From Escherichia coli (GTDB lineage Bacteria > Pseudomonadota > Gammaproteobacteria > Enterobacterales > Enterobacteriaceae): a stretch of DNA of 64,000 nt. The number at the start of each line of letters is the position of its first letter. Positions within the stretch are counted from its first letter, which is position 1. Shown in pieces: positions 29,650-54,724 of this stretch. A program made the position numbers and the translations under genes. The notes under the pieces are model-generated. The model saw only the letters and a list, made by a program, of their open reading frames with translations, was not told where the DNA came from and made no database searches. The DNA lies in the NCBI RefSeq assembly GCF_003018115.1, contig NZ_CP027457.1, one strand, 5' to 3'.

Positions 29650-29915
29650 TGTGGAGGCGCAATATTAAATATTGTCAACCTAAAGAAACTCCTAAAAACC
29701 ATATTGAATGACACTTAATATAATTCTTAAAAATAGCCAATTGCCGAATTGTTACCTTGCCTGCTATTCCGTTAGCTGTAACACTTCCTCCTGCATTATT
29801 GGAGAGCCAATATTCAATTACCATAATGTCACCTTATATTCGGAAGTTAATTTCCGCAATAACCCTTTCTCATCAACGATTGTATGCAGAGAGGGTTTGA
29901 AAAATTAAGCTAAAT

Positions 29916-29954
29916 CAGTGTATTGGTAGCTAAAAAGCCAGGGGCGGTAGCGTG
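29916..29954 (+). promoter_or_regulatory. JUMPstart element with ops site (GGCGGTAGCGTG) in the wza leader
   Basis: cagtgtattggtagctaaaaagccaggggcGGCGGTAGCGTG matches the 39-bp JUMPstart/ops motif used by RfaH. Confidence 0.8.
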
Positions 29955-30132: not shown

Positions 30133-31272
30133 ATGATGAAATCCAAAATGAAATTGATGCCATTATTGGTGTCAGTAACCTTGATAAGCGGTTGCACAGT
30201 ACTTCCGGGCAGCAATATGTCGACGATGGGCAAAGACGTCATCAAACAGCAGGACGCTGATTTCGATCTCGACAAAATGGTGAATGTTTATCCGTTGACC
30301 CCGCGCCTGATTGATCAATTACGTCCACGACCCAACGTAGCGCGCCCCAATATGACGCTGGAAAGTGAGATCGCGAATTACCAGTATCGCGTCGGGCCGG
30401 GGGACGTTCTGAATGTCACCGTCTGGGATCACCCGGAACTCACCACGCCAGCCGGTCAGTACCGCAGCTCCAGTGACACCGGCAACTGGGTACAGCCTGA
30501 CGGCACTATGTTTTACCCGTATATCGGCAAGGTTCACGTAGTCGGGAAAACGCTCGCTGAAATCCGCAGTGATATTACCGGGCGCTTAGCGACGTACATC
30601 GCTGACCCGCAGGTGGACGTTAATATCGCCGCCTTCCGCTCACAAAAGGCCTATATCTCCGGACAGGTGAATAAATCCGGTCAACAGGCGATCACCAACG
30701 TACCACTGACCATTCTCGACGCCATCAACGCCGCAGGTGGCCTGACCGACACCGCTGACTGGCGCAACGTGGTGCTAACACACAATGGTCGTGAAGAACG
30801 CATTTCTTTGCAGGCGCTGATGCAAAACGGCGACCTCAATCAGAACCGACTGCTTTATCCCGGCGATATTCTCTACGTGCCGCGTAATGATGATCTGAAA
30901 GTGTTTGTGATGGGTGAAGTGAAGAAACAGAGCACCCTGAAAATGGACTTTAGCGGCATGACCCTGACTGAAGCCCTGGGCAATGCCGAAGGTATCGACA
31001 TGACCACCTCCAACGCCAGCGGCATCTTTGTCATTCGTCCGCTGAAAGGCGAGGGCGGGCGTAATGGCAAGATTGCCAATATCTACCAGCTGGATATGTC
31101 CGATGCGACGTCGCTGGTGATGGCGACAGAATTCCGCCTGCAACCTTATGACGTGGTGTATGTCACCACCGCCCCGGTTTCCCGCTGGAACCGTCTGATC
31201 AATCAGTTGCTGCCAACTATTAGCGGTGTCCGTTACATGACGGATACAGCCAGCGACATTCATAACTGGTAA
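30133..31272 (+). CDS. wza: Outer-membrane polysaccharide export lipoprotein Wza
   Basis: 379 aa, lipoprotein signal (LISGC); matches Wza. Confidence 0.95.
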
Positions 31273-31277
31273 TCGTC

Positions 31278-31721
31278 ATGTTTAACAACATCTTAGTTGT
31301 CTGTGTCGGCAATATTTGCCGTTCCCCGACGGCGGAACGCTTACTGCAACGTTATCACCCGGAGCTGAAAGTGGAGTCCGCTGGACTCGGCGCGCTGGTC
31401 GGTAAGGGCGCTGATCCTACCGCTATCAGCGTCGCCGCAGAACATCAACTGTCTCTGGAAGGTCACTGTGCACGGCAAATCAGCCGCCGCCTGTGTCGCA
31501 ACTATGACCTGATTTTGACCATGGAAAAGCGCCATATCGAACGCTTATGCGAGATGGCACCTGAGATGCGCGGCAAAGTGATGCTGTTTGGTCACTGGGA
31601 TAACGAATGTGAAATCCCCGATCCGTATCGCAAAAGCCGGGAAACGTTTGCAGCGGTGTACACATTACTTGAACGGTCTGCCCGCCAGTGGGCGCAGGCA
31701 TTGAACGCAGAGCAGGTATAA
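31278..31721 (+). CDS. wzb: Low-molecular-weight protein-tyrosine phosphatase Wzb
   Basis: 147 aa; CVGNICRSP active-site motif. Confidence 0.95.
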   Translation: MFNNILVVCVGNICRSPTAERLLQRYHPELKVESAGLGALVGKGADPTAISVAAEHQLSLEGHCARQISRRLCRNYDLILTMEKRHIERLCEMAPEMRGKVMLFGHWDNECEIPDPYRKSRETFAAVYTLLERSARQWAQALNAEQV

Positions 31722-31723
31722 GA

Positions 31724-33886
31724 ATGACAGAAAAAGTAAAACAACATGCCGCTCCGGTAACGGGCAGTGATGAAATCGATATTGGTCGCCTGGTCGGCAC
31801 CGTCATTGAAGCGCGCTGGTGGGTGATTGGCATCACCGCTGTATTTGCCCTCTGTGCTGTGGTTTACACTTTCTTCGCCACGCCGATTTATAGTGCCGAC
31901 GCACTGGTACAAATCGAACAAAACAGCGGCAATTCGTTAGTGCAGGACATTGGCTCGGCATTAGCCAACAAACCGCCTGCATCGGACGCCGAGATCCAGT
32001 TGATTCGTTCGCGTCTGGTGCTTGGTAAAACGGTGGACGATCTAGACCTCGATATTGCGGTGAGCAAAAACACGTTCCCGATTTTCGGTGCGGGCTGGGA
32101 TCGTTTGATGGGACGTCAGAACGAGACGGTGAAAGTGACCACCTTTAACCGCCCGAAAGAGATGGCGGACCAGGTGTTTACGCTTAATGTGCTGGATGAC
32201 AAAAACTACACTCTGAGCAGTGATGGCGGCTTTAGCGCCCGTGGGCAAGCGGGCCAGATGCTGAAAAAAGAAGGCGTCACGCTGATGGTTGAAGCCATTC
32301 ACGCCCGCCCGGGCAGTGAGTTTACCGTCACCAAATACTCCACGTTGGGGATGATCAACCAACTGCAAAACAGCCTGACGGTAACGGAGAACGGCAAAGA
32401 CGCAGGCGTACTGAGCCTGACTTATACCGGTGAAGATCGCGAACAGATCCGCGACATTCTTAACAGCATCGCCCGTAACTATCAGGAACAAAATATTGAG
32501 CGCAAATCGGCGGAAGCGTCGAAAAGCCTCGCTTTCCTCGCGCAACAGTTACCGGAAGTACGTAGCCGCCTCGATGTTGCCGAAAACAAACTGAATGCCT
32601 TCCGTCAGGATAAAGATTCTGTTGATCTGCCGCTGGAAGCGAAAGCGGTGCTCGATTCGATGGTGAACATCGACGCGCAGTTGAACGAACTGACCTTTAA
32701 AGAGGCGGAAATCTCCAAGCTGTACACCAAAGTTCACCCCGCGTACCGCACGCTGCTGGAGAAACGTCAGGCGCTGGAAGACGAAAAAGCCAAACTTAAT
32801 GGTCGCGTAACGGCGATGCCGAAAACCCAGCAGGAAATTGTCCGTCTGACCCGCGATGTCGAGTCTGGTCAGCAGGTCTATATGCAACTGCTGAATAAAG
32901 AGCAGGAGCTGAAAATCACCGAAGCCAGCACCGTCGGCGATGTGCGCATTGTTGACCCGGCAATCACCCAGCCAGGTGTACTGAAACCGAAGAAAGGGCT
33001 GATTATCCTTGGGGCGATTATTCTTGGCCTGATGCTCTCTATCGTGGGTGTGCTGCTGCGCTCGTTGTTTAATCGCGGCATCGAAAGCCCGCAGGTGCTG
33101 GAAGAACACGGTATCAGCGTCTATGCCAGCATCCCGTTGTCGGAATGGCAGAAAGCGCGCGATAGCGTCAAAACCATCAAAGGGATTAAACGCTATAAAC
33201 AGAGCCAGCTACTGGCGGTGGGGAATCCAACCGATCTGGCGATTGAAGCCATCCGCAGTCTGCGTACCAGTCTGCACTTCGCGATGATGCAGGCGCAGAA
33301 CAATGTGTTGATGATGACCGGGGTTAGCCCGTCAATCGGTAAAACCTTTGTCTGCGCCAACCTGGCGGCGGTGATCAGCCAGACCAATAAACGCGTGTTG
33401 TTGATCGACTGCGATATGCGCAAAGGCTACACCCACGAGCTGTTGGGCACCAATAACGTCAATGGCCTGTCGGAAATTCTGATTGGTCAGGGCGATATTA
33501 CTACCGCAGCTAAACCGACCTCTATTGCCAAATTTGACCTGATCCCGCGCGGTCAGGTGCCGCCAAATCCTTCTGAACTGTTGATGAGCGAACGCTTTGC
33601 CGAACTGGTGAACTGGGCGAGTAAAAACTATGACCTGGTGTTGATTGATACGCCGCCGATTCTGGCAGTGACCGATGCGGCAATTGTTGGTCGTCATGTC
33701 GGAACCACATTAATGGTGGCGCGTTATGCGGTCAACACATTGAAAGAAGTGGAAACCAGTCTGAGCCGCTTTGAGCAAAACGGTATTCCGGTGAAAGGGG
33801 TGATTCTGAACTCCATCTTCCGCCGCGCCAGCGCGTATCAGGATTATGGCTATTACGAATACGAATATAAGTCGGATGCGAAATAA
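31724..33886 (+). CDS. wzc: Tyrosine autokinase / co-polymerase Wzc
   Basis: Start at MTEKVKQHAAP inside track ORF 31688..33886; Walker A (GVSPSIGKT) and C-terminal Tyr-rich tail (YQDYGYYEYEYKSD). Confidence 0.95.
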   Translation: MTEKVKQHAAPVTGSDEIDIGRLVGTVIEARWWVIGITAVFALCAVVYTFFATPIYSADALVQIEQNSGNSLVQDIGSALANKPPASDAEIQLIRSRLVLGKTVDDLDLDIAVSKNTFPIFGAGWDRLMGRQNETVKVTTFNRPKEMADQVFTLNVLDDKNYTLSSDGGFSARGQAGQMLKKEGVTLMVEAIHARPGSEFTVTKYSTLGMINQLQNSLTVTENGKDAGVLSLTYTGEDREQIRDILNSIARNYQEQNIERKSAEASKSLAFLAQQLPEVRSRLDVAENKLNAFRQDKDSVDLPLEAKAVLDSMVNIDAQLNELTFKEAEISKLYTKVHPAYRTLLEKRQALEDEKAKLNGRVTAMPKTQQEIVRLTRDVESGQQVYMQLLNKEQELKITEASTVGDVRIVDPAITQPGVLKPKKGLIILGAIILGLMLSIVGVLLRSLFNRGIESPQVLEEHGISVYASIPLSEWQKARDSVKTIKGIKRYKQSQLLAVGNPTDLAIEAIRSLRTSLHFAMMQAQNNVLMMTGVSPSIGKTFVCANLAAVISQTNKRVLLIDCDMRKGYTHELLGTNNVNGLSEILIGQGDITTAAKPTSIAKFDLIPRGQVPPNPSELLMSERFAELVNWASKNYDLVLIDTPPILAVTDAAIVGRHVGTTLMVARYAVNTLKEVETSLSRFEQNGIPVKGVILNSIFRRASAYQDYGYYEYEYKSDAK

Positions 33887-33896
33887 CGACATCCGC

Positions 33897-34005
33897 TGTC
33901 GGATGCGATGCTGACGCATCTTATCCGACCTACCTTCACGCCGCATCCGGCAAGCAAACCAGCTCCGTAGGCCGGATAAGGCGCTCACGCCGCATCCGGC
34001 AACAG
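33897..34005. repeat. REP/BIME elements between wzc and wcaA
   Basis: Inverted copies of the REP motif (gtcggatgcg...cttatccgacctac and gtaggccggataaggcgctcacgccgcatccggca). Confidence 0.75.
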
Positions 34006-34063
34006 AACCCGTAAACAAGCTTATAAACCGGCAGAACATCTCGATACTCCGGGAGAACAACCT

Positions 34064-34903
34064 ATGAAAGACAATCCGCTGATCTCAATCTATATGCCGA
34101 CCTGGAACCGCCAACAACTGGCGATTCGGGCGATAAAATCGGTCCTGCGCCAGGACTACAGCAACTGGGAGATGATCATCGTGGATGATTGCTCCACCTC
34201 CTGGGAACAACTGCAACAGTACGTCACCGCCCTCAACGATCCGCGTATTACCTACATTCACAACGACATTAACAGCGGGGCGTGCGCGGTACGTAACCAG
34301 GCGATTATGCTGGCGCAAGGGGAATACATTACCGGGATCGATGACGATGATGAATGGACGCCCAACCGCCTGAGCGTCTTCCTCGCCCATAAACAGCAAC
34401 TGGTCACTCACGCCTTTTTGTACGCTAACGACTACGTATGCCAGGGAGAAGTTTATTCCCAACCGGCAAGCTTACCACTGTATCCCAAATCGCCGTACTC
34501 ACGCCGCCTGTTCTATAAACGCAATATCATTGGCAATCAGGTTTTTACCTGGGCGTGGCGTTTCAAAGAGTGCTTGTTCGATACCGAACTGAAAGCAGCA
34601 CAGGATTACGACATCTTCCTGCGGATGGTGGTGGAGTATGGCGAACCGTGGAAAGTGGAAGAGGCGACGCAGATCCTGCATATCAATCACGGTGAAATGC
34701 AGATCACCTCGTCACCGAAAAAATTCTCCGGGTACTTCCACTTTTACCGCAAGCACAAAGATAAATTTGACCGTGCAAGCAAAAAATATCAGCTGTTTAC
34801 CCTCTACCAGATCCGCAATAAACGTATGACCTGGCGCACTTTGCTGACGCTGCTTTCGGTGCGTAACGGCAAACGTCTGGCTGATGGTATTCGGGGGCGC
34901 TAA
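34064..34903 (+). CDS. wcaA: Colanic acid glycosyltransferase WcaA (GT2)
   Basis: 279 aa, GT2 motifs (IIVDDCS, DDDDEW); cluster position. Confidence 0.9.
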   Translation: MKDNPLISIYMPTWNRQQLAIRAIKSVLRQDYSNWEMIIVDDCSTSWEQLQQYVTALNDPRITYIHNDINSGACAVRNQAIMLAQGEYITGIDDDDEWTPNRLSVFLAHKQQLVTHAFLYANDYVCQGEVYSQPASLPLYPKSPYSRRLFYKRNIIGNQVFTWAWRFKECLFDTELKAAQDYDIFLRMVVEYGEPWKVEEATQILHINHGEMQITSSPKKFSGYFHFYRKHKDKFDRASKKYQLFTLYQIRNKRMTWRTLLTLLSVRNGKRLADGIRGR

Positions 34904-34905
34904 AG

Positions 34906-35394
34906 ATGCTGGAAGATCTGCGCGCCAACAGCTGGAGTTTACGTCCGTGCTGCATGGTTCTAGCCTATCGCGTCGCTCATTTTTGTTCGGTGTGGCGCAA
35001 AAAGAACGTCCTCAACAATCTGTGGGCGGCCCCGCTGCTGGTGCTGTATCGCATTATCACCGAATGCTTTTTCGGTTATGAAATCCAGGCCGCCGCGACC
35101 ATTGGCCGCCGCTTTACTATCCATCACGGTTACGCCGTAGTGATCAATAAAAACGTGGTAGCGGGGGATGATTTCACCATTCGCCACGGCGTCACTATCG
35201 GCAATCGTGGTGCCGATAACATGGCATGTCCACATATTGGCAACGGCGTCGAACTCGGTGCCAACGTTATTATTCTTGGTGATATCACGCTTGGTAACAA
35301 CGTCACCGTGGGTGCGGGCAGCGTGGTGCTCGACTCTGTCCCGGACAACGCGCTGGTGGTGGGAGAAAAAGCGCGAGTGAAGGTAATTAAATGA
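34906..35394 (+). CDS. wcaB: Colanic acid acetyltransferase WcaB (hexapeptide repeat)
   Basis: 162 aa with left-handed beta-helix hexapeptide repeats. Confidence 0.9.
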   Translation: MLEDLRANSWSLRPCCMVLAYRVAHFCSVWRKKNVLNNLWAAPLLVLYRIITECFFGYEIQAAATIGRRFTIHHGYAVVINKNVVAGDDFTIRHGVTIGNRGADNMACPHIGNGVELGANVIILGDITLGNNVTVGAGSVVLDSVPDNALVVGEKARVKVIK

Positions 35395-36608
35395 ATATTT
35401 TGCAATTTAATGTGCGACTGGCGGAAGGCGGGGCAGCAGGTGTGGCGTTAGATCTCCACCAGCGTGCGCTGCAACAGGGGCTAGCGTCACATTTTGTCTA
35501 CGGTTACGGCAAAGGCGGCAAAGAGAGCGTCAGCCATCAAAACTATCCGCAGGTCATCAAACATACGCCGCGGATGACTGCAATGGCGAATATTGTCCTG
35601 TTTCGTCTGTTTAATCGCGATCTGTTTGGCAATTTCAATGAGTTATATCGCACCATTACTCGCACACCGGGTCCGGTGGTCCTGCATTTTCATGTGCTGC
35701 ACAGCTACTGGCTAAATCTTAAGAGCGTGGTGCGCTTTTGCGAAAAAGTGAAAAACCATAAACCGGACGTCACTCTGGTCTGGACGCTGCACGACCACTG
35801 GAGTGTTACCGGACGCTGCGCCTTTACCGACGGTTGCGAAGGCTGGAAAACAGGCTGCCAGAAATGCCCGACCTTAAATAATTATCCGCCGGTGAAGATT
35901 GATCGGGCGCACCAGCTGGTGGCGGGCAAACGCCAGTTATTCCGTGAGATGCTGGCGCTGGGCTGTCAGTTTATTTCCCCCAGCCAGCATGTGGCTGACG
36001 CTTTCAATAGCCTGTACGGTCCAGGGCGTTGCCGGATTATCAATAACGGTATTGATATGGCAACCGAAGCGATTCTGGCGGATCTGCCTCCGGTGCGCGA
36101 AACCCAGGGTAAGCCGAAAATCGCGGTGGTGGCGCATGACCTGCGTTACGACGGCAAGACTAACCAGCAACTGGTGCGTGAGATGATGGCGCTGGGCGAC
36201 AAAATCGAACTGCATACCTTTGGTAAGTTCTCGCCGTTCACCGCTGGTAACGTGGTTAATCACGGCTTTGAAACCGACAAACGTAAGCTGATGAGCGCGC
36301 TCAATCAGATGGATGCGCTGGTATTCAGTTCTCGCGTCGATAACTACCCGCTGATTTTGTGTGAGGCGCTATCGATTGGCGTGCCGGTGATTGCCACCCA
36401 TAGCGACGCGGCGCGGGAAGTGCTGCAAAAATCCGGCGGTAAAACCGTCAGCGAAGAAGACGTGCTGCAACTGGTGCAGTTAAGCAAACCGGAAATCGCG
36501 CAGGCGATATTTGGTACCACGTTGGCCGGGTTCAGCCAACGTAGCCGCGCCGCCTACAGTGGACAACAGATGCTGGAGGAGTATGTCAACTTCTATCAGA
36601 ATCTGTAG
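35391..36608 (+). CDS. wcaC: Colanic acid glycosyltransferase WcaC (GT4)
   Basis: 405 aa; cluster position. Confidence 0.9.
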   Translation: MNILQFNVRLAEGGAAGVALDLHQRALQQGLASHFVYGYGKGGKESVSHQNYPQVIKHTPRMTAMANIVLFRLFNRDLFGNFNELYRTITRTPGPVVLHFHVLHSYWLNLKSVVRFCEKVKNHKPDVTLVWTLHDHWSVTGRCAFTDGCEGWKTGCQKCPTLNNYPPVKIDRAHQLVAGKRQLFREMLALGCQFISPSQHVADAFNSLYGPGRCRIINNGIDMATEAILADLPPVRETQGKPKIAVVAHDLRYDGKTNQQLVREMMALGDKIELHTFGKFSPFTAGNVVNHGFETDKRKLMSALNQMDALVFSSRVDNYPLILCEALSIGVPVIATHSDAAREVLQKSGGKTVSEEDVLQLVQLSKPEIAQAIFGTTLAGFSQRSRAAYSGQQMLEEYVNFYQNL

Positions 36609-37800
36609 CTACCTGCTGCTGCCGCTGATCTACCTGCTGGTTAACGTCAAAATCGCCCAGCTTGGTGAAAGTTTCCCCATCACTATCGTCACTTTTTTAC
36701 CTGTCTTGTTACTGCTGTTTTTAGAACGCATCAGCGTTAAAAAATTGATGATTGCCTTAGGGGTTGGCGCGGGGCTCACGGCGTTCAACTATCTGTTTGG
36801 TCAGTCGTTGGATGCCAGTAAATACGTCACTTCAACCATGCTGTTTGTCTATATTGTGATCATTATTGGCATGGTGTGGAGTATTCGCTTTAAAACGATT
36901 TCGCCACACAACCATCGCAAGATATTACGTTTCTTTTATCTGGTGGTCGGGCTGGTGGTGGCGCTGGCGGCGGTGGAGATGGCGCAAATTATCCTCACCG
37001 GTGGCAGCAGTATTATGGAGTCGATTTCGAAATATCTGATTTATAGCAACAGCTATGTACTGAATTTCATTAAATTCGGCGGCAAGCGCACGACAGCACT
37101 TTATTTCGAACCGGCATTTTTCGCTCTGGCATTAATCTCAATTTGGCTCAGCATCAAACAGTTTGGTATCAAAACGCCTAAAACAGATGCTATGATTCTC
37201 GCAGGGATAATATTATCCGGATCGTTTTCAGGGGTTATGACCTTTATCCTGTTTTATTTGCTGGAGTGGGCATTCCAATATCTGAATAAAGAGGCGATTA
37301 AGAAAAAGTTACCGTTAGCATTGATTTCTCTGGCTGTATTCCTGGTTGGTGTGGTAATCGCGTTTCCTTATATTTCCACCCGTCTGGGCGATTTAGGTAC
37401 GGAAGGATCGTCATCGTATTATCGTATTGTCGGTCCGCTGGTGATGGTCGGTTATTCTTTGACCCATATTGACGGTGTAGTCAGATTTGGCTCACTTTAT
37501 GAATATGTCGCATCATTCGGAATATTTAACGGTGCGGATGTCGGAAAAACCATAGACAATGGTTTGTATCTGCTGATTATTTATTTTTCCTGGTTCGCGG
37601 TGTTTTTATCGCTGTGGTACATGGGGAAAGTGATAAAAATGATGATCAACGCTTTTGGTGATAACCGCAATTTTCGCGTGCAATTATATCTTTTTACTCC
37701 GGTTTCGCTGTTTTTTACCGGTTCGATATTTAGCCCGGAATATGCATTTTTAATCGTCTGTCCGTTTATTTTGCGAAAAGCGTTAAATATTACGAGGTAA
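36583..37800 (+). CDS. wcaD: Colanic acid polymerase WcaD
   Basis: Start at [15 protein letters not shown] inside track ORF 36511..37800; polytopic membrane protein. Confidence 0.85.
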
Positions 37801-37810
37801 GAATAAGAAC

Positions 37811-38557
37811 ATGTTGCTTAGCATAATCACTGTCGCGTTTCGTAACCTCGAAGGGATAGTCAAAACACATGCCTCGCTGGCGCATCTGGCGCAGGCGGAC
37901 GATATCAGCTTCGAATGGATTGTTGTCGATGGCGGTTCCAACGACGGTACCCGTGAGTATCTGGAGAATCTCAATAGTATCTATAACCTACGCTTTGTCA
38001 GCGAGCCAGATAACGGTATCTACGACGCCATGAACAAGGGCATTGCGATGGCACAAGGCAAGTTCGCGTTGTTTCTCAACTCGGGCGATATTTTTCATCA
38101 GGATGCCGCAAATTTTGTTCGTAAGTTAAAAATGCAAAAAGATAACGTGATGATCACCGGCGATGCGCTGCTGGATTTTGGCGACGGGCATAAAATTAAG
38201 CGTAGTGCTAAACCGGGTTGGTATATTTATCACAGCCTGCCCGCCAGCCATCAGGCGATATTTTTCCCGGTATCCGGTTTGAAAAAATGGCGTTATGACC
38301 TGGAATATAAAGTTTCTTCTGATTACGCGCTGGCAGCTAAAATGTATAAAGCAGGTTATGCATTTAAAAAACTCAATGGCCTGGTGTCTGAATTTTCCAT
38401 GGGTGGGGTATCAACCACCAATAATATGGAATTGTGTGCTGACGCCAAAAAAGTCCAACGGCAGATATTACATGTGCCTGGCTTCTGGGCAGAATTATCC
38501 TGGCATTTACGCCAACGTACTACCTCAAAGACGAAAGCCTTATATAACAAAAGCTGA
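37811..38557 (+). CDS. wcaE: Colanic acid glycosyltransferase WcaE (GT2)
   Basis: 248 aa; cluster position. Confidence 0.9.
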
Positions 38558-38572
38558 ATATAAGGGAAAACG

Positions 38573-39121
38573 ATGCAGGATTTAAGCGGTTTCTCGGTGC
38601 CGAAAGGGTTCCGGGGCGGCAACGCTATTAAAGTGCAATTATGGTGGGCAGTACAGGCAACAATATTTGCCTGGTCGCCACAAGTATTGTATCGCTGGCG
38701 GGCTTTTTTATTACGTTTATTCGGAGCAAAAATAGGAAAAAACGTAGTTATTCGTCCGTCAGTAAAAATTACCTATCCGTGGAAATTAACCTTAGGTGAT
38801 TACGCGTGGGTCGGCGATGACGTCAATTTATATACCCTCGGTGAAATAACCATTGGCGCACATTCGGTGATATCGCAAAAAAGTTATTTATGCACCGGTA
38901 GCCACGACCATGCAAGTCAACATTTCACCATTAACGCCACGCCTATTGTGATTGGCGAGAAATGCTGGCTGGCAACCGATGTCTTTGTTGCCCCAGGCGT
39001 CACAATCGGCGACGGCACTGTCGTGGGTGCACGAAGCAGTGTTTTTAAATCGCTTCCGGCAAATGTGGTTTGCCGGGGGAATCCCGCAGTGGTGATACGC
39101 GAACGCGTTGAAACTGAATAA
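38573..39121 (+). CDS. wcaF: Colanic acid acetyltransferase WcaF (hexapeptide repeat)
   Basis: 182 aa; cluster position. Confidence 0.9.
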   Translation: MQDLSGFSVPKGFRGGNAIKVQLWWAVQATIFAWSPQVLYRWRAFLLRLFGAKIGKNVVIRPSVKITYPWKLTLGDYAWVGDDVNLYTLGEITIGAHSVISQKSYLCTGSHDHASQHFTINATPIVIGEKCWLATDVFVAPGVTIGDGTVVGARSSVFKSLPANVVCRGNPAVVIRERVETE

Positions 39122-39146
39122 ATTCAAAAATACAGAGGAATAAGAC

Positions 39147-40268
39147 ATGTCAAAAGTCGCTCTCATCACCGGTGTAACCGGACAAGACGGTTCTTACCTG
39201 GCAGAGTTTCTGCTGGAAAAAGGTTACGAGGTGCATGGTATTAAGCGTCGCGCATCGTCATTCAACACCGAGCGCGTGGATCACATTTATCAGGATCCGC
39301 ACACCTGCAACCCGAAATTCCATCTGCATTATGGCGACCTGAGTGATACCTCTAACCTGACGCGCATTTTGCGTGAAGTACAGCCGGATGAAGTGTACAA
39401 CCTGGGGGCAATGAGCCACGTTGCGGTCTCTTTTGAGTCACCAGAATATACCGCTGACGTCGACGCGATGGGTACGCTGCGCCTGCTGGAGGCGATCCGC
39501 TTCCTCGGTCTGGAAAAGAAAACCCGTTTTTATCAGGCTTCCACCTCTGAACTGTACGGTCTGGTGCAGGAAATTCCGCAGAAAGAAACCACGCCGTTCT
39601 ACCCGCGATCTCCGTATGCGGTCGCCAAACTGTACGCCTACTGGATCACCGTTAACTACCGCGAATCCTACGGCATGTACGCCTGTAACGGTATTCTCTT
39701 CAACCATGAATCCCCGCGCCGCGGTGAAACCTTCGTTACCCGCAAAATCACCCGCGCAATCGCCAATATCGCCCAGGGGCTGGAGTCGTGCCTGTACCTC
39801 GGCAATATGGATTCCCTGCGTGACTGGGGCCATGCCAAAGACTACGTAAAAATGCAGTGGATGATGCTGCAACAGGAACAGCCGGAAGATTTCGTTATTG
39901 CTACCGGCGTTCAGTACTCCGTACGTCAGTTCGTGGAAATGGCGGCAGCACAGTTGGGCATCAAACTGCGCTTTGAAGGCACGGGTGTTGAAGAGAAGGG
40001 CATTGTGGTTTCCGTCACCGGGCATGACGCGCCGGGCGTTAAACCGGGTGATGTGATTATCGCCGTTGATCCGCGTTACTTCCGTCCGGCAGAAGTTGAA
40101 ACGCTGCTCGGCGACCCGACCAAAGCGCACGAAAAACTGGGCTGGAAACCGGAAATCACCCTCAGAGAGATGGTGTCTGAAATGGTGGCTAATGACCTCG
40201 AAGCGGCGAAAAAACACTCTCTGCTGAAATCTCACGGCTACGACGTGGCGATCGCGCTGGAGTCATAA
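39147..40268 (+). CDS. gmd: GDP-mannose 4,6-dehydratase
   Basis: 373 aa; [31 protein letters not shown] matches Gmd. Confidence 0.95.
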
Positions 40269-40270
40269 GC

Positions 40271-41236
40271 ATGAGTAAACAACGCATTTTTATCGCTGGC
40301 CATCGTGGGATGGTCGGTTCTGCCATCAAGCGGCAGCTCGAACAGCGCGGTGATGTGGATCTGGTATTACGTACCCGCGACGAGCTGAACCTGCTGGACA
40401 GCCGCGCCGTGCATGATTTCTTTGCCAGCGAACGCATTGACCAGGTCTATCTGGCGGCGGCGAAAGTGGGCGGCATTGTTGCCAACAACACCTATCCGGC
40501 GGATTTCATCTACCAGAACATGATGATTGAGAGCAACATCATTCACGCCGCGCATCAGAACGACGTGAACAAACTGCTGTTTCTCGGATCGTCCTGCATC
40601 TACCCGAAACTGGCAAAACAGCCGATGGCAGAAAGCGAGTTATTGCAGGGCACGCTGGAGCCGACCAACGAGCCTTACGCCATTGCCAAAATCGCCGGGA
40701 TCAAACTGTGCGAATCTTACAATCGCCAGTACGGACGAGATTACCGCTCGGTCATGCCGACCAACCTGTATGGCCCGCATGACAACTTCCACCCGAGTAA
40801 TTCGCATGTGATCCCAGCATTGCTGCGTCGCTTCCACGAGGCGACGGCACAGAATGCGCCGGACGTGGTGGTGTGGGGCAGCGGTACACCGATGCGTGAA
40901 TTCCTGCACGTCGATGATATGGCGGCGGCGAGCATTCATGTGATGGAGCTGGCGCACGAAGTCTGGCTGGAAAACACCCAGCCGATGCTGTCGCACATTA
41001 ACGTCGGCACGGGCGTTGACTGCACTATCCGCGAGCTGGCGCAAACCATCGCCAAAGTGGTGGGTTACAAAGGTCGGGTGGTTTTTGATGCCAGTAAACC
41101 GGATGGTACGCCGCGCAAACTGCTTGATGTGACGCGCCTGCATCAGCTTGGCTGGTATCACGAAATCTCACTGGAAGCGGGGCTTGCCAGCACTTACCAG
41201 TGGTTCCTTGAGAATCAAGACCGCTTTCGGGGGTAA
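40271..41236 (+). CDS. fcl: GDP-L-fucose synthase (WcaG)
   Basis: 321 aa; [19 protein letters not shown]ossmann motif; follows gmd. Confidence 0.95.
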
Positions 41237-41238
41237 TG

Positions 41239-41718
41239 ATGTTTTTACGTCAGGAAGACTTTGCCACGGTAGTGCGCTCCACACCGCTTGTCTCTCTCGA
41301 CTTTATTGTCGAGAACAGTCGCGGCGAGTTTCTGCTTGGCAAAAGAACCAACCGCCCGGCGCAGGGTTACTGGTTTGTGCCGGGAGGGCGCGTGCAGAAA
41401 GACGAAACGCTGGAAGCCGCATTCGAGCGGCTGACGATGGCGGAACTGGGGCTGCGTCTGCCGATAACAGCAGGCCAGTTTTACGGTGTCTGGCAGCACT
41501 TTTATGACGATAACTTCTCCGGCACGGATTTCACCACTCACTATGTGGTGCTCGGTTTTCGCTTCAGAGTCGCTGAAGAAGATCTGATACTGCCGGATGA
41601 GCAGCATGACGATTACCGCTGGCTGACGCCGGACGCGCTGCTCGCCAGTAACGATGTTCACGCTAACAGCCGCGCCTATTTTCTCGCTGAGAAGCGTGCC
41701 GGAGTACCCGGATTATGA
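41239..41718 (+). CDS. gmm: GDP-mannose mannosyl hydrolase (Nudix; WcaH)
   Basis: About 159 aa, [24 protein letters not shown]...; track ORF begins one codon earlier (41236). Confidence 0.9.
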
Positions 41719-42938
41719 AAATACTGGTCTACGGCATTAACTACTCGCCGGAGTTAACCGGTATCGGCAAATACACCGGCGAGATGGTGGAATGGCTGGC
41801 GGCACAAGGTCATGAGGTGCGGGTTATTACCGCACCGCCTTACTACCCGCAGTGGCAGGTGGGTGAGAACTATTCCGCCTGGCGCTACAAACGAGAAGAG
41901 GGGGCCGCCACGGTGTGGCGCTGCCCGCTGTATGTGCCAAAACAGCCGAGCACCCTGAAACGCCTGTTGCATCTCGGCAGTTTTGCCGTCAGCAGTTTCT
42001 TTCCACTGATGGCGCAACGTCGCTGGAAGCCGGATCGCATTATCGGCGTAGTGCCAACGCTGTTTTGCACGCCGGGAATGCGCCTGCTGGCGAAGCTCTC
42101 TGGTGCGCGTACCGTGCTGCATATTCAGGATTACGAAGTGGACGCCATGCTGGGGCTGGGCCTTGCCGGAAAAGGCAAAGGCGGCAAAGTGGCACAGCTG
42201 GCAACGGCGTTCGAACGTAGCGGACTGCATAACGTCGATAACGTTTCCACGATTTCGCGTTCGATGATGAATAAAGCCATCGAAAAAGGCGTGGCGGCGG
42301 ATAACGTCATCTTCTTCCCCAACTGGTCGGAAATTGCCCGTTTTCAACATGTTGCAGACGCCGATGTTGATGCCCTTCGTAACCAGCTTGGCCTGCCGGA
42401 TAACAAAAAAATCATTCTTTACTCCGGCAATATTGGTGAAAAGCAGGGGCTGGAAAACGTTATTGAAGCTGCCGATCGTCTGCGCGATGAACCGCTGATT
42501 TTTGCCATTGTCGGGCAGGGCGGCGGCAAAGCGCGGCTGGAAAAAATGGCGCAGCAGCGTGGACTGCGCAACATGCAATTTTTCCCGCTGCAATCGTATG
42601 ACGCTTTACCCGCACTGCTGAAGATGGGCGATTGCCATCTGGTGGTGCAAAAACGCGGCGCGGCAGATGCCGTATTGCCGTCGAAACTGACCAATATTCT
42701 GGCGGTAGGCGGTAACGCGGTGATTACCGCAGAGGCCCACACAGAACTGGGGCAGCTTTGCGAAACCTTTCCGGGCATTGCGGTTTGCGTAGAACCGGAA
42801 TCGGTCGAGGCGCTGGTGGCGGGGATCCGTCAGGCGCTCCTGCTGCCCAAACACAACACGGTGGCACGTGAATATGCCGAACGCACACTCGATAAAGAGA
42901 ACGTGTTACGTCAATTTATAAATGATATTCGGGGATAA
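41715..42938 (+). CDS. wcaI: Colanic acid glycosyltransferase WcaI (GT4)
   Basis: 407 aa; cluster position. Confidence 0.9.
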
Positions 42939-42940
42939 TT

Positions 42941-44377
42941 ATGGCGCAGTCGAAACTCTATCCAGTTGTGATGGCAGGTGGCTCCGGTAGCCGCTTATGG
43001 CCGCTTTCCCGCGTACTTTACCCCAAGCAGTTTTTATGCCTGAAAGGCGATCTCACCATGCTGCAAACCACCATCTGCCGCCTGAACGGCGTGGAGTGCG
43101 AAAGCCCGGTGGTGATTTGCAATGAGCAGCACCGCTTTATTGTCGCGGAACAGCTGCGTCAACTGAACAAACTCACCGAGAACATTATTCTCGAACCGGC
43201 AGGGCGTAACACTGCACCTGCCATTGCACTGGCGGCGCTGGCGGCAAAACGTCATAGCCCGGAGAGCGACCCGTTAATGCTGGTATTGGCGGCGGATCAT
43301 GTGATTGCCGATGAAGACGCGTTCCGTGCCGCCGTGCGTAATGCCATGCCATATGCCGAAGCGGGCAAGCTGGTGACCTTCGGCATTGTGCCGGATCTAC
43401 CAGAAACCGGTTATGGCTATATTCGTCGCGGTGAAGTGTCTGCGGGTGAGCAGGATACGGTGGCCTTTGAAGTGGCGCAGTTTGTCGAAAAACCGAATCT
43501 GGAAACCGCCCAGGCCTATGTGGCAAGCGGCGAATATTACTGGAACAGCGGTATGTTCCTGTTCCGCGCCGGACGCTATCTCGAAGAACTGAAAAAATAT
43601 CGCCCGGATATTCTCGATGCCTGTGAAAAAGCGATGAGCGCCGTCGATCCGGATCTTGATTTTATTCGTGTGGATGAAGAAGCGTTTCTCGCCTGCCCGG
43701 AAGAGTCGGTGGATTACGCGGTCATGGAACGTACGGCAGATGCTGTTGTGGTGCCGATGGATGCGGGCTGGAGCGATGTTGGTTCCTGGTCTTCATTATG
43801 GGAGATCAGCGCCCACACCGCCGAGGGCAACGTTTGCCACGGCGATGTGATTAATCACAAAACTGAAAACAGCTATGTGTACGCCGAATCTGGCCTGGTC
43901 ACCACCGTCGGGGTGAAAGATCTGGTAGTGGTGCAGACCAAAGATGCGGTGCTGATTGCCGACCGTAACGCGGTGCAGGATGTGAAAAAAGTGGTCGAGC
44001 AGATCAAAGCCGATGGTCGCCATGAGCATCGGGTGCATCGCGAAGTGTATCGTCCGTGGGGCAAATATGACTCTATCGACGCGGGCGACCGCTACCAGGT
44101 GAAACGCATCACCGTGAAACCGGGCGAGGGCTTGTCGGTACAGATGCACCATCACCGCGCGGAACACTGGGTAGTGGTCGCGGGAACGGCAAAAGTCACC
44201 ATTGATGGTGATATCAAACTGCTTGGTGAAAACGAGTCCATTTATATTCCGCTGGGGGCGACGCACTGCCTGGAAAATCCGGGGAAAATTCCGCTCGATT
44301 TAATTGAAGTGCGCTCCGGCTCTTATCTCGAAGAGGATGATGTGGTGCGCTTCGCGGATCGCTACGGACGGGTGTAA
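42941..44377 (+). CDS. cpsB: Mannose-1-phosphate guanylyltransferase (ManC/CpsB)
   Basis: 478 aa; [24 protein letters not shown] nucleotidyltransferase motif plus C-terminal cupin domain. Confidence 0.95.
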
Positions 44378-44378
44378 A

Positions 44379-44482
<104 letters not shown>

Positions 44483-44569
44483 GAATGCGAAACCGAGATG
44501 TAAATAACGACAAAAACAAAATTGGCCGTTTCGGTCAGGGCCAACTATTGCCTGAAAAAGGGTAACGAC

Positions 44570-45940
44570 ATGAAAAAATTAACCTGCTTTAAAGCCTATG
44601 ATATTCGCGGGAAATTAGGCGAAGAACTGAATGAAGATATTGCCTGGCGCATTGGTCGTGCCTATGGCGAATTTCTCAAACCGAAAACCATTGTGTTAGG
44701 CGGTGATGTCCGTCTCACCAGCGAAACCTTAAAACTGGCGCTGGCAAAAGGTTTACAGGATGCGGGCGTCGATGTGCTGGATATCGGCATGTCCGGCACC
44801 GAAGAGATCTATTTCGCCACGTTCCATCTCGGCGTGGATGGCGGCATTGAAGTTACTGCCAGCCATAATCCGATGGATTACAACGGCATGAAACTGGTGC
44901 GCGAAGGGGCTCGCCCGATCAGCGGCGATACCGGACTGCGCGATGTCCAGCGTCTGGCAGAAGCCAACGACTTTCCTCCCGTTGATGCAACCAAACGCGG
45001 TCGCTATCAGCAAATCAATCTGCGTGACGCTTACGTTGATCACCTGTTCGGTTATATCAATGTCAAAAACCTCACGCCGCTCAAGCTGGTGATCAACTCC
45101 GGGAACGGCGCAGCGGGTCCGGTGGTGGACGCCATTGAAGCCCGCTTTAAAGCCCTCGGCGCGCCCGTGGAATTAATCAAAGTACACAACACACCGGACG
45201 GCAATTTCCCCAACGGTATTCCTAACCCGCTGCTACCGGAATGTCGCGACGACACCCGCAATGCGGTCATCAAACACGGCGCGGATATGGGCATTGCCTT
45301 TGATGGCGATTTTGACCGCTGTTTCCTGTTTGACGAAAAAGGGCAGTTTATCGAGGGCTATTACATTGTCGGCCTGCTGGCAGAAGCATTCCTCGAAAAA
45401 AATCCCGGCGCGAAGATCATCCACGATCCACGTCTCTCCTGGAACACCGTTGATGTGGTGACTGCCGCAGGTGGCACGCCGGTAATGTCGAAAACCGGAC
45501 ACGCCTTTATTAAAGAACGTATGCGCAAGGAGGACGCCATCTACGGTGGCGAAATGAGCGCTCACCATTACTTCCGTGATTTCGCTTACTGCGACAGCGG
45601 CATGATCCCGTGGCTACTGGTAGCCGAACTGGTGTGCCTGAAAGAGAAAACGCTGGGCGAACTGGTACGCGACCGGATGGTGGCGTTTCCGGCAAGCGGT
45701 GAGATCAACAGCAAACTGGCGCAACCCGCTGAGGCGATTAACCGCGTGGAACAGCATTTTAGCCGTGAGGCGCTGGCGGTGGATCGTACCGATGGCATCA
45801 GTATGACCTTTGCCGACTGGCGTTTTAACCTGCGCTCCTCCAACACCGAACCGGTGGTGCGGTTGAATGTGGAATCGCGCGGTGATGTGCCGCTGATGGA
45901 AGCGCGAACGCGAACTCTGCTGACGTTGCTGAACGAGTAA
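44570..45940 (+). CDS. cpsG: Phosphomannomutase (ManB/CpsG)
   Basis: Start at [14 protein letters not shown] inside track ORF 44522..45940; TASHNP active-site motif. Confidence 0.95.
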
Positions 45941-45994
45941 TGTCGGATCTTCCCTTACCCCACTGCGGGTAAGGGGCTAATAACAGGAACAACG

Positions 45995-47389
45995 ATGACA
46001 AATCTAAAAAAGCGCGAGCGAGCGAAAACCAATGCATCGTTAATCTCTATGGTGCAACGCTTTTCAGATATCACCATCATGTTTGCCGGACTATGGCTGG
46101 TTTGCGAAGTGAGCGGCCTGTCATTCCTCTACATGCACCTGTTGGTGGCACTGATTACGCTGGTGGTGTTCCAGATGCTGGGCGGCATCACCGATTTTTA
46201 TCGCTCATGGCGCGGTGTTCGGGCAGCGACAGAATTTGCTCTGTTGCTACAAAACTGGACGTTAAGCGTGATTTTCAGCGCCGGACTGGTGGCGTTCAAC
46301 AATGATTTCGACACGCAACTGAAAATCTGGCTGGCGTGGTATGGGCTGACCAGCATCGGACTGGTGGTTTGCCGTTCATGTATTCGTATTGGGGCGGGCT
46401 GGCTGCGTAATCATGGCTATAACAAGCGCATGGTCGCCGTAGCGGGGGATTTAGCCGCCGGACAAATGCTGATGGAGAGCTTCCGTAATCAGCCGTGGTT
46501 AGGGTTTGAAGTGGTGGGGGTTTACCACGACCCGAAACCGGGCGGCGTTTCTAACGACTGGGCGGGTAACCTGCAACAGCTGGTCGAGGATGCTAAAGCG
46601 GGTAAGATTCATAACGTCTATATCGCGATGCAAATGTGCGACGGCGCGCGAGTGAAAAAACTGGTCCATCAACTGGCGGACACCACCTGTTCGGTGCTGC
46701 TGATCCCCGATGTCTTTACCTTCAACATTCTCCATTCACGTCTCGAAGAGATGAACGGCGTTCCGGTGGTGCCGCTGTATGACACGCCGCTTTCCGGGGT
46801 TAACCGCCTGCTAAAACGTGCGGAAGACATTGTGCTGGCGACGCTGATCTTGCTGCTGATCTCCCCGGTGCTGTGCTGTATTGCGCTGGCGGTGAAACTC
46901 AGTTCACCTGGGCCGGTTATTTTCCGCCAGACTCGCTATGGCATGGATGGCAAGCCGATCAAAGTGTGGAAGTTCCGTTCCATGAAAGTGATGGAGAACG
47001 ACAAAGTGGTGACTCAGGCGACGCAGAACGATCCGCGCGTCACCAAAGTGGGGAACTTTCTGCGCCGCACCTCGCTGGATGAACTGCCGCAGTTTATCAA
47101 TGTGCTGACCGGGGGGATGTCGATTGTCGGTCCACGTCCGCACGCAGTAGCGCATAACGAACAGTATCGCCAGCTCATTGAAGGCTACATGCTGCGCCAC
47201 AAAGTGAAACCGGGCATTACCGGCTGGGCGCAGATTAATGGCTGGCGCGGCGAAACCGACACGCTGGAGAAAATGGAAAAACGCGTCGAGTTCGACCTTG
47301 AGTACATCCGCGAATGGAGCGTCTGGTTCGATATCAAAATCGTTTTCCTGACGGTGTTCAAAGGTTTCGTTAACAAAGCGGCATATTGA
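45995..47389 (+). CDS. wcaJ: Undecaprenyl-phosphate glucose-1-phosphate transferase WcaJ
   Basis: 464 aa, N-terminal TM region and C-terminal sugar-transferase domain. Confidence 0.95.
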   Translation: MTNLKKRERAKTNASLISMVQRFSDITIMFAGLWLVCEVSGLSFLYMHLLVALITLVVFQMLGGITDFYRSWRGVRAATEFALLLQNWTLSVIFSAGLVAFNNDFDTQLKIWLAWYGLTSIGLVVCRSCIRIGAGWLRNHGYNKRMVAVAGDLAAGQMLMESFRNQPWLGFEVVGVYHDPKPGGVSNDWAGNLQQLVEDAKAGKIHNVYIAMQMCDGARVKKLVHQLADTTCSVLLIPDVFTFNILHSRLEEMNGVPVVPLYDTPLSGVNRLLKRAEDIVLATLILLLISPVLCCIALAVKLSSPGPVIFRQTRYGMDGKPIKVWKFRSMKVMENDKVVTQATQNDPRVTKVGNFLRRTSLDELPQFINVLTGGMSIVGPRPHAVAHNEQYRQLIEGYMLRHKVKPGITGWAQINGWRGETDTLEKMEKRVEFDLEYIREWSVWFDIKIVFLTVFKGFVNKAAY

Positions 47390-47390
47390 T

Positions 47391-48869: not shown

Positions 48870-48897
48870 GTTGCTGTTTTCGGTTCCGACAACGGTT

Positions 48898-48990
48898 GCC
48901 GGGTGCAGCGTAAAACGCCTTATCCATCCTACGGTTCTGTGCTCGGGACCTGTAGGCCTGATAAGACGCGCCAGCGTCGCATCAGGCAAA
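48898..48990. repeat. REP/BIME elements between wzxC and wcaK
   Basis: REP-like inverted motifs (gcgtaaaacgccttatccatcctac ... gtaggcctgataagacgcgccagcgtcgcatcaggc). Confidence 0.7.
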
Positions 48991-49048
48991 AAGCGGCAAC
49001 GAACACAACAAACACAGCCTCACCTGGCATCAAATTTATGAGGAAAAA

Positions 49049-51546: not shown

Positions 51547-51556
51547 AGGAGAACGC

Positions 51557-54120: not shown

Positions 54121-54277
54121 ATAAACAATCAGAATAACAACGAGTTAGCAATAGGATTTTAGTCAAAGTTTTCCAGGATTTTCCTTGTTTCCTGAGCGGA
54201 TTGGTAAGACAATTAGCGTTTGAATTTTTCGAGTTAAGCGCGAGTGGGTAACGCTCGTCACATCGTAGGCATGCATG

Positions 54278-54316
54278 CAGTGCTCTGGTAGCTGTAAAGC
54301 CAGGGGCGGTAGCGTA
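54278..54316 (+). promoter_or_regulatory. JUMPstart element with ops-like site (GGCGGTAGCGTA) in the O-antigen operon leader
   Basis: cagtgctctggtagctgtaaagccaggggcggtagcgta; nearly identical to the element upstream of wza. Confidence 0.8.
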
Positions 54317-54352
54317 TTTGCTTATTTTTATCGTGTAATCAAAGTGATTGTT

Positions 54353-54724
54353 ATGAATAAGATAATAGTTGATCTTGACGGTACTTTAACTGAGGAAGAT
54401 ACAAATGATTATACTAAAGTTAAACCAAAACTAAAAGTTGTTAAAAAATTGTATGAATTTAAAAAAATGGGATTCAGTATTGTAATAATGACAGCAAGGA
54501 ATATGCGAACATTTGATGGTAATATTGGAAAGATTAATATACATACACTTCCTGTAATCATTGACTGGCTTAATGAAAATAATATCCCGTACGATGAAGT
54601 TATTGTGGGGAAGCCATGGTGCGGTAATAAGGGATTTTATGTTGATGATCGGGCACTAAGGCCTTCTGAATTTGCAAGATTAAATCTTCAAGAGATAAAC
54701 GAATTATTTGATAAGGATAAATAA
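54353..54724 (+). CDS. HAD-superfamily phosphatase-like protein (O-antigen cluster gene 1)
   Basis: Start at MNKIIVDLDGTLT (HAD motif I DxDGT at 54371-54385) inside track ORF 54275..54724; AT-rich codon usage. Confidence 0.65.
   Translation: MNKIIVDLDGTLTEEDTNDYTKVKPKLKVVKKLYEFKKMGFSIVIMTARNMRTFDGNIGKINIHTLPVIIDWLNENNIPYDEVIVGKPWCGNKGFYVDDRALRPSEFARLNLQEINELFDKDK

What the first reader, a model, noticed from the sequence alone, without database searches (positions are those of the whole stretch)
29916..29954. Two near-identical JUMPstart/ops elements mark the colanic acid and O-antigen operons
The 39-bp motif occurs at 29916-29954 (ops GGCGGTAGCGTG) and at 54278-54316 (GGCGGTAGCGTA), each in the leader of a long polysaccharide operon. 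This is consistent with RfaH-dependent antitermination of both.
Basis: partly seen in the sequence, partly recalled or inferred. Interest (0 to 1): 0.3.

Follow-up and report, generated by a model that had tools for sequence, protein, structure and literature searches.

The report
Two JUMPstart/ops antitermination signals, E. coli
The two 39-base motifs are real copies of the well-known JUMPstart/ops signal that loads the anti-terminator RfaH onto RNA polymerase at the start of the colanic acid and O-antigen operons of E. coli, so the finding is correct but ordinary.

Summary
Observation confirmed. The 39-nt motif is at 29916-29954 and 54278-54316 on the + strand. The copies are 33/39 identical, and both match Rfam JUMPstart (RF01707) at 57 bits against a threshold of 35. 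No other ops-like 12-mer with one mismatch or fewer occurs in the 64 kb.

Site 1 lies 178 nt upstream of wza, the first gene of the 22.8-kb colanic acid operon. Site 2 lies 36 nt upstream of the first gene of a 9.1-kb, 30.6% G+C O20/O137-family O-antigen cluster, just after galF.

RfaH ChIP-seq in E. coli CFT073 lists wza and the O-antigen leader among eight RfaH-bound ops sites. The window's wza JUMPstart is 39/39 identical to CFT073's, and the O-antigen one is 38/39 identical.

The only departure is G12 to A in site 2, at the pause-determining position rather than the RfaH-contact core. It is a minority allele: 87 E. coli genomes carry the identical A12 leader, and about 7% of JUMPstarts across species have A12. 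The same 12-mer (CFT073 c1882) and other A12 ops (kpsM) are RfaH-bound in vivo, so it does not refute the claim.

Already known; low interest.

The parts
29916..29954 (+). JUMPstart copy 1, in the colanic acid (wza) leader
   Evidence: Rfam RF01707 at 57.3 bits, full-length model match. It is 39/39 identical to the CFT073 wza leader.
29943..29954 (+). ops element GGCGGTAGCGTG (perfect consensus). It starts 190 nt before the wza ATG.
   Evidence: Exact match. Same sequence and same -190 spacing as the RfaH-ChIP-positive wza ops of CFT073.
29923..29941 (+). Predicted 5-bp stem-loop of JUMPstart 1 (UUGGU / 9-nt loop / GCCAG)
   Evidence: Rfam consensus structure line. It forms in the 27-nt fold, but the energy is no better than shuffles.
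29800..29827 (+). Only sigma-70-like site upstream of JUMPstart 1 (TGGAGA-16-CATAAT). Candidate wza promoter, not mapped here.
   Evidence: Consensus scan. The region is invariant between the window and CFT073. Assignment is an inference.
30133..52951 (+). Colanic acid operon wza-wzb-wzc-wcaA...wcaM (20 genes, 22.8 kb, 52.7% G+C)
   Evidence: ORFs. RefSeq annotation of near-identical genomes. G+C.
54278..54316 (+). JUMPstart copy 2, in the O-antigen leader downstream of galF
   Evidence: Rfam RF01707 at 56.9 bits. Identical to CFT073 through ops T11.
54305..54316 (+). ops element GGCGGTAGCGTA (G12 to A). It ends 36 nt before the first O-antigen gene.
   Evidence: One mismatch to the consensus. 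The same 12-mer is RfaH-bound at CFT073 c1882.
54285..54303 (+). Predicted 5-bp stem-loop of JUMPstart 2 (CUGGU / 9-nt loop / GCCAG)
   Evidence: Rfam structure line. Present in the minimum-energy fold, z-score about 0.
54238..54352 (+). Inferred 5' untranslated leader of the O-antigen operon. The start is transferred from CFT073.
   Evidence: In CFT073 the transcription unit starts 67 nt upstream of ops (Data Set S2A of PMC9765446). That start maps to window position ~54238 in alignment A3. Inference; no consensus promoter was found there.
54353..63414 (+). O20/O137-family O-antigen gene cluster (HAD hydrolase ... wzy, wzx ... pssD, pssE; 9.1 kb, 30.6% G+C)
   Evidence: 99.0-99.2% identical to five annotated E. 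coli genomes, including an O20:H12 strain. G+C.

Best explanation
Both motifs are functional JUMPstart elements whose 3' 12 nt is the ops signal. RNA polymerase starts at a promoter upstream of each leader and transcribes into ops. The ops bases, exposed on the non-template strand of the transcription bubble, form a small hairpin (C3:G8 pair, G5 and T6 presented) that RfaH recognises while the polymerase pauses at U11. RfaH then stays bound for the rest of the operon. It suppresses pausing, Rho-dependent termination and H-NS-mediated elongation silencing, and it helps recruit ribosomes to genes that lack Shine-Dalgarno sites. This allows full-length expression of the 22.8-kb colanic acid operon once Rcs activates its promoter, and of the AT-rich 9.1-kb O-antigen operon. 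Shown here: presence, strand, position, family membership and conservation of the elements. Taken from published work on orthologous leaders: RfaH occupancy and the mechanism. Inferred: that this strain behaves the same way, and that G12A in site 2 weakens the U11 pause without abolishing RfaH loading.
For: Rfam JUMPstart hits of 57 bits at exactly the stated coordinates. Both are on the sense (non-template) strand in intergenic leaders of same-strand operons. The wza leader is 98% identical to CFT073 with the JUMPstart 39/39, and the O-antigen leader is identical through ops T11. CFT073 RfaH ChIP-seq lists wza, wzx (O-antigen), rfaQ, hlyC, kpsM, tssH, c4518 and c1882 as the eight bound leader ops sites (PMC9765446). 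ops positions 2-11, which carry the RfaH contacts and the pause U, are consensus in both sites, and mutational data rank G5, T6, G8 and T11 as most critical (PMC5995543). A12 ops are RfaH-bound in vivo: kpsM GGCGGTAGCATA and c1882 GGCGGTAGCGTA. K1 strain NU14 has GGCGGTAGCGTA 28 nt before kpsM, and about 1120 E. coli genomes carry that 40-mer. Neither first gene has a Shine-Dalgarno sequence, and the O-antigen cluster is 30.6% G+C; both are typical of RfaH targets. Reviews state that colanic acid transcription uses JUMPstart-RfaH antitermination and that RfaH is needed for genes downstream of wzc (PMC9976346, PMC3673037).
Against: Nothing was measured in this strain: there are no transcript, ChIP or rfaH-mutant data. 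rfaH itself lies outside the window. In CFT073 the wza site bound RfaH only in a delta-hns delta-stpA background, because the promoter is otherwise silent. G12 is part of the pause-inducing TG that the E. coli targets validated by 2009 share. G12C removed the U11 pause in vitro and cut the RfaH effect from 35.9-fold to 20.0-fold in vivo. G12A itself has not been tested, and it is a minority allele in O-antigen leaders. The promoters were not mapped; the consensus scan found only one weak candidate for wza and none for the O-antigen leader.
Confidence: 0.9

Rival explanations
1. Site 2 is a weakened ops. The G12 to A change lowers the U11 pause enough that RfaH loads on only a fraction of polymerases, so O-antigen expression in this serogroup is appreciably (at least 2-fold) less RfaH-stimulated than in G12 strains.
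For: G12C eliminates the U11 pause in vitro. It reduces the RfaH effect to 20.0-fold from 35.9-fold, and expression with RfaH to 25% of wild type. G is strongly preferred at position 12: 98 of 112 JUMPstart-like sites across species, and 58 of 60 sampled E. coli O-antigen leaders are non-A.
Against: G12C did not abrogate RfaH recruitment. Natural A12 ops at kpsM (wild-type CFT073) and c1882 give RfaH ChIP signal. A12 recurs in front of three unrelated O-antigen clusters and in 87 genomes, so it is tolerated. A purine-to-purine change may be milder than G to C.
Confidence: 0.25
2. The elements act mainly as RNA. The conserved 5' stem-loop of JUMPstart is a cis-regulatory RNA structure (for example a pause or processing hairpin) that works independently of RfaH.
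For: Rfam models JUMPstart with a 5-bp stem. Weinberg et al. 2010 report a conserved stem-loop (PMC2864571). In 113 sites the two variable 5'-arm bases stay able to pair with G (C/T 108 of 113 and T/C 111 of 113). The stem ends 12 nt before the U11 pause position (sequence reading).
Against: Folding energies are no better than shuffled sequence (z about 0). My cross-species set had the 3' arm fixed by the search pattern, so no true covariation could be measured. ops alone suffices for RfaH action in reporter and in vitro systems.
Confidence: 0.05
3. The copies are conserved only as the edge of the recombination flank for swapping polysaccharide clusters, and have no regulatory role in this strain.
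For: Homology between serogroups ends exactly after ops position 12.
Against: The same motif is kept in front of the non-variable colanic acid operon, and in front of kps, rfaQ and hly leaders that are not cluster junctions. It is bound by RfaH in vivo. Site-specific conservation across more than 100 species implies selection on the sequence itself.
Confidence: 0.03

Closest known systems
JUMPstart element (Hobbs & Reeves 1994; Rfam RF01707)
   Same: Same 39-nt sequence and 5-bp stem-loop, with ops at the 3' end. Same position just upstream of polysaccharide gene clusters on the sense strand. Both copies score 57 bits against a threshold of 35.
   Different: Nothing of substance. Copy 2 ends in A where the family consensus has G.
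ops/RfaH sites of E. coli CFT073 wza and wzx (O-antigen) leaders (Hustmyer et al. 2022, PMC9765446)
   Same: Orthologous loci. The wza leader is 98% identical, with the same ops and the same 190-nt distance to wza. The O-antigen leader is identical from galF to ops T11.
   Different: CFT073 has G12 in the O-antigen ops and an O6 cluster downstream. The window has A12 and an O20/O137-family cluster, with the first gene 36 nt after ops rather than about 60 nt.
ops of the group 2 capsule kpsM leader and of CFT073 c1882 (type VI secretion locus)
   Same: Natural ops with A at position 12. These are GGCGGTAGCATA (CFT073 kpsM), GGCGGTAGCGTA (NU14 kpsM and CFT073 c1882). The c1882 12-mer plus the following TTT is identical to window site 2. 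Both CFT073 sites are RfaH-ChIP-positive.
   Different: Different operons. c1882 has only the ops, without the full JUMPstart 5' half.

Membership tests
JUMPstart (Rfam RF01707) | Sequence plus structure match to the 38-position covariance model above the curated gathering score (35 bits) | tested here: met
   57.3 bits (29916-29954) and 56.9 bits (54278-54316), full-length matches.
JUMPstart (Rfam RF01707) | Located in the 5' leader just upstream of a polysaccharide gene cluster, on the sense strand | tested here: met
   Site 1 ends 178 nt before wza. Site 2 ends 36 nt before the first O-antigen gene. All are on the + strand.
JUMPstart (Rfam RF01707) | Conserved 5-bp stem-loop in the 5' half | tested here: inconclusive
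   Both copies can form the stem (U.G or C-G closing pair), but the energy equals that of shuffles. My comparative set could not show two-sided covariation.
RfaH-dependent ops site | RfaH-contact core intact: C3:G8 pair, G4, G5, T6, A7 | tested here: met
   Positions 1-11 are GGCGGTAGCGT in both sites. Criteria from PMC5995543.
RfaH-dependent ops site | Pause-inducing T11-G12 dinucleotide | tested here: not met
   Met for site 1 (TG). Site 2 has TA. This feature is not absolute: the RfaH-bound ops of kpsM and c1882 in CFT073 also end in TA, and G12C retains recruitment.
RfaH-dependent ops site | Lies on the non-template strand in an untranslated leader downstream of the promoter, not inside a translated gene | tested here: met
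   Both are intergenic and on the sense strand. The in-frame ATG at 54275 is not the annotated start. The promoter position is only inferred.
RfaH-dependent ops site | RfaH occupancy of the transcription unit, or rfaH-dependent distal gene expression | not testable with these tools
   Available only for orthologous leaders in CFT073 (ChIP-seq) and from the literature on K-12, K92 and K30.
RfaH-dependent ops site | rfaH gene present in the same genome | not testable with these tools
   rfaH maps far outside this 64-kb window. The window is E. coli, in which rfaH is a core gene by established knowledge.

The most novel reading that the evidence does not exclude
Position 12 of the O-antigen ops may act as a natural tuning knob. 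The minority A12 allele sits exactly at the junction where serogroup-specific DNA begins. It could lower the U11 pause and hence the fraction of polymerases that load RfaH, setting a lower O-antigen expression level in the O20/O137, O174 and 'O8-flippase' lineages. A related idea is that the JUMPstart stem-loop, ending 12 nt upstream of U11, acts as an exit-channel hairpin that shapes the ops pause.
Probability: 0.12. Interest if true: 0.4.

Novelty: already known. Interest (0 to 1): 0.1.

Why it matters
It matters little beyond correct annotation. JUMPstart/ops elements in front of the E. coli colanic acid and O-antigen clusters have been described since the 1990s, and RfaH occupancy at both leaders was mapped genome-wide in 2022. 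The useful points are practical. The two sites mark the starts of two RfaH-controlled transcription units. The O-antigen site marks the exact left boundary of serogroup-specific DNA. An ops ending in A should not be rejected by motif scans that require a terminal G.

Tried and rejected
1. Chance occurrence was rejected: Rfam E-values are about 1e-10, and only these two sites have one mismatch or fewer to ops.

2. 'G12A disqualifies site 2' was rejected after I found the same 12-mer among the RfaH-ChIP-positive sites of CFT073 and A12 ops in kpsM leaders.

3. I searched for an RcsAB box upstream of wza using the consensus TAAGAATATTCCTA, recalled from memory, with up to 3 mismatches. Nothing was found near wza and the total hits were at chance level. 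A 4-mismatch candidate at 29717-29730 (- strand) was left unassigned.

4. Intrinsic terminator scans inside both operons gave counts at or below the shuffle expectation. No specific terminator that RfaH would override was identified. Rho- or H-NS-dependent polarity is the likelier target, but it is not testable here.

5. The consensus promoter scan found no sigma-70 match between galF and site 2. The start of the leader was transferred from CFT073 instead.

6. Stout 1996 (PMC178186) is not held in the library, so the mapped cps promoter could not be checked.

7. The hairpin fold energies are unremarkable. I did not claim structural support beyond the Rfam model.

Full report
**1. The observation.**
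Reading the window directly gives CAGTGTATTGGTAGCTAAAAAGCCAGGGGCGGTAGCGTG at 29916-29954. It gives CAGTGCTCTGGTAGCTGTAAAGCCAGGGGCGGTAGCGTA at 54278-54316. Both are on the + strand.

A pairwise alignment with 40 nt of flank on each side shows 33/39 identities inside the motif. There is no similarity beyond its edges.

Rfam's JUMPstart model (RF01707) hits exactly these two intervals, full length. The scores are 57.3 and 56.9 bits against a gathering score of 35, with E = 1.6e-10 and 2.1e-10 for the 64-kb window (alignments).

A search with GGCGGTAGCGTG finds one exact match (29943-29954) and one single-mismatch match (54305-54316). The eight two-mismatch matches are no more than shuffles give.

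**2. Context.**
The window is E. coli. The 2 kb around site 1 is 95-100% identical to 4,815 complete genomes, where it is annotated yegH, then wza and wzb.

ORFs and the annotation of an O20:H12 strain (L001) give the layout:

| Feature | Window coordinates | Note |
|---|---|---|
| yegH | up to 29580 | on the - strand |
| yegH-wza intergenic region | 29581-30132 | 552 nt, 35.5% G+C |
| colanic acid operon wza-wzb-wzc-wcaA...wcaM | 30133-52951 | 22.8 kb, 52.7% G+C |
| galF | 53126-54019 | |
| galF-first O-antigen gene intergenic region | 54020-54352 | 333 nt |
| O-antigen cluster | 54353-63414 | ten genes, 9.1 kb, 30.6% G+C |
| gnd | after 63414 | |

The O-antigen cluster runs HAD hydrolase, hypothetical protein, GT2, wzy and wzx of the O20/O137 family, GT61, GT25, GT4, pssD, pssE.

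Site 1 ends 178 nt before the wza ATG. Site 2 ends 36 nt before the first O-antigen gene. Both lie on the sense strand of the operon they precede.

Matches to genomes of other serogroups stop at window 54315-54317, which is exactly at the end of ops.

**3. What it is and how it works.**
The JUMPstart/ops system is well characterised. According to Zuber et al. 2018 (PMC5995543), ops acts as DNA on the non-template strand of a paused elongation complex:
- The C3:G8 pair closes a small hairpin that presents G5 and T6 to RfaH.
- T11 and G12 form the pause-inducing dinucleotide.

In their lux reporter the RfaH effect was 35.9-fold for wild type. It fell to 4.7-4.9-fold for G5A, G8C and T11G, and to 20.0-fold for G12C (source data). 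[quoted passage not shown]

Both window sites have the consensus at positions 1-11. Site 2 differs only at position 12 (G to A). This substitution was not tested in that study.

**4. Evidence from orthologous and related sequences.**
Hustmyer et al. 2022 (PMC9765446) mapped RfaH by ChIP-seq in E. coli CFT073 and found eight bound leader ops sites. Their Data Set S2A lists:

| CFT073 site | ops sequence | Note |
|---|---|---|
| wzx (O-antigen) | GGCGGTAGCGTG | transcription unit starts 67 nt upstream of ops |
| rfaQ, tssH, c4518 | ...GTG | |
| hlyC | GGCGGTAGCATG | |
| kpsM | GGCGGTAGCATA | A at position 12 |
| c1882 | GGCGGTAGCGTA | A at position 12 |

I fetched the CFT073 loci and aligned them with the window:
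- The wza leader is 98% identical over 540 nt. The JUMPstart is 39/39 identical, and the ops-to-ATG spacing is the same 190 nt.
- The galF-O-antigen leader is nearly identical from galF to ops T11. It then diverges completely.
- The CFT073 transcription-unit start maps to window position ~54238. That would give a leader of about 115 nt. This is an inference from an RNA-seq-based prediction in another strain.
- The c1882 site reads GGCGGTAGCGTATTT, identical to window site 2 over ops plus three further bases.

Separately, recombineering primers in two papers carry TTGGTAGCTGTTAAGCCAAGGGCGGTAGCGTACCTGAAGA. This 40-mer is present in about 1,120 complete E. coli genomes. In the K1 strain NU14 its ops ends 28 nt before the kpsM-type ABC transporter gene, which is followed by kpsT and the neu genes.

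An ops ending in A is therefore the native signal of the classic RfaH-dependent group 2 capsule region 3.

**5. How common is A12?**
- The 77-mer 54240-54316 matches 2,557 of 5,426 complete E. coli genomes.
- In a systematic sample of 60 of those genomes, 58 alignments stop one base short, meaning a base other than A at position 12. K-12 is among them.
- With the E-value cut set between the 77/77 and 76/76 scores, 87 genomes carry the identical A12 leader.
- A12 is found in front of at least three unrelated O-antigen clusters: O20/O137, O174, and a cluster annotated with an 'O8 family' flippase. Similarity among them ends immediately after the A.
Of these, 112 are JUMPstart-like (113 by an automatic filter, one of which I set aside as a false positive). 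The next base is G in 98, A in 8, T in 4 and C in 2.

So G12 is strongly preferred but not invariant. A12 is a tolerated minority allele.

**6. Supporting features.**
Neither wza nor the first O-antigen gene has a recognisable Shine-Dalgarno sequence. This fits the published model in which RfaH recruits ribosomes (established knowledge, summarised).

The O-antigen cluster's 30.6% G+C fits the H-NS-silenced, horizontally acquired targets described by Hustmyer et al..

Reviews state that colanic acid transcription uses a JUMPstart-RfaH antitermination mechanism (PMC9976346). They also state that RfaH is required for genes downstream of wzc (PMC3673037). Navasa et al. 2014 (FEBS Lett 588:922) is cited for RfaH control of colanic acid, but it is not held in the library.

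**7. Weak points.**
- Nothing was measured in this strain, and rfaH lies outside the window.
- The only sigma-70-like site upstream of site 1 is TGGAGA-16-CATAAT at 29800-29827. None was found for site 2.
- An RcsAB-box search with a consensus recalled from memory found nothing near wza.
- Terminator-like hairpins inside the operons are at chance level. The polarity that RfaH overcomes is therefore more likely Rho- or H-NS-dependent, which these tools cannot show.
- The Rfam 5-bp stem can form in both copies, but it folds no better than shuffled sequence.
- In the cross-species set the two variable 5'-arm positions remain able to pair with G in 108 of 113 and 111 of 113 sites. The 3' arm was fixed by my search pattern, however, so this is not a covariation test.

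**8. Comparison and verdict.**
The two elements are members of the JUMPstart family. They are orthologues of the experimentally RfaH-bound wza and O-antigen leader ops sites of E. coli.

The one defining feature not met is the terminal G of the pause dinucleotide in site 2. That feature is demonstrably not required for RfaH occupancy in vivo, although it may lower pausing.

Both were described in the 1990s (Hobbs & Reeves 1994 and Stout 1996, as cited) and mapped genome-wide in 2022. Novelty: already known. Interest: low.

The only mildly open question is whether the A12 allele tunes RfaH loading, and with it O-antigen expression. A related open point is whether the JUMPstart stem, which ends 12 nt before the pause site, shapes the pause.

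Noticed in passing
window 13622-13764, 13950-14092, 14279-14427 (- strand): Three tandem SIB RNA genes (Rfam RF00113, 142-150 bits). These are the antitoxin RNAs of Ibs/Sib type I toxin-antitoxin pairs, spaced about 330 nt apart.
   Followed up: no
window 44516-44565 (+ strand): An algC RNA motif (Rfam RF02929, 78 bits against a threshold of 33.8) in the 192-nt cpsB-cpsG gap inside the colanic acid operon, just upstream of the phosphomannomutase gene cpsG.
   Followed up: no
window 54315-54317; L002 and L003 around 9077; L125: Sequence similarity between E. coli strains of different O serogroups ends exactly after ops position 12. The JUMPstart is therefore the last conserved base block before serogroup-specific DNA, and position 12 (G or A) sits at that junction.
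   Followed up: partly
window 30112-30120 and 54337-54345: Both first genes (wza and the O-antigen HAD hydrolase) lack a Shine-Dalgarno sequence. They share the 9-mer CAAAGTGAT about 8-13 nt upstream of their ATG. This may be chance; it was not tested.
   Followed up: no
window 54275-54352: An ATG at 54275, inside the conserved leader, is in frame with the first O-antigen gene. This makes a mechanical ORF (54275-54724) that would run through the JUMPstart. RefSeq annotation of near-identical genomes starts the gene at 54353 (MNKIIVDLDGT...), which places the HAD DxDxT motif at the N-terminus.
   Followed up: partly
window 54353-63414 versus 30133-52951: There is a sharp composition contrast. 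The O-antigen cluster is 30.6% G+C against 52.7% for the colanic acid operon, and it has many promoter-like AT-rich sites on both strands (63 found against 51 expected).
   Followed up: no
L126 (CFT073 2423638-2424776) and L127 (CFT073 1715753-1715764): In CFT073 wza is annotated as a frameshifted pseudogene, although its leader ops binds RfaH. The c1882 ops in front of a type VI secretion PAAR/VgrG locus is a bare ops without the JUMPstart 5' half.
   Followed up: no
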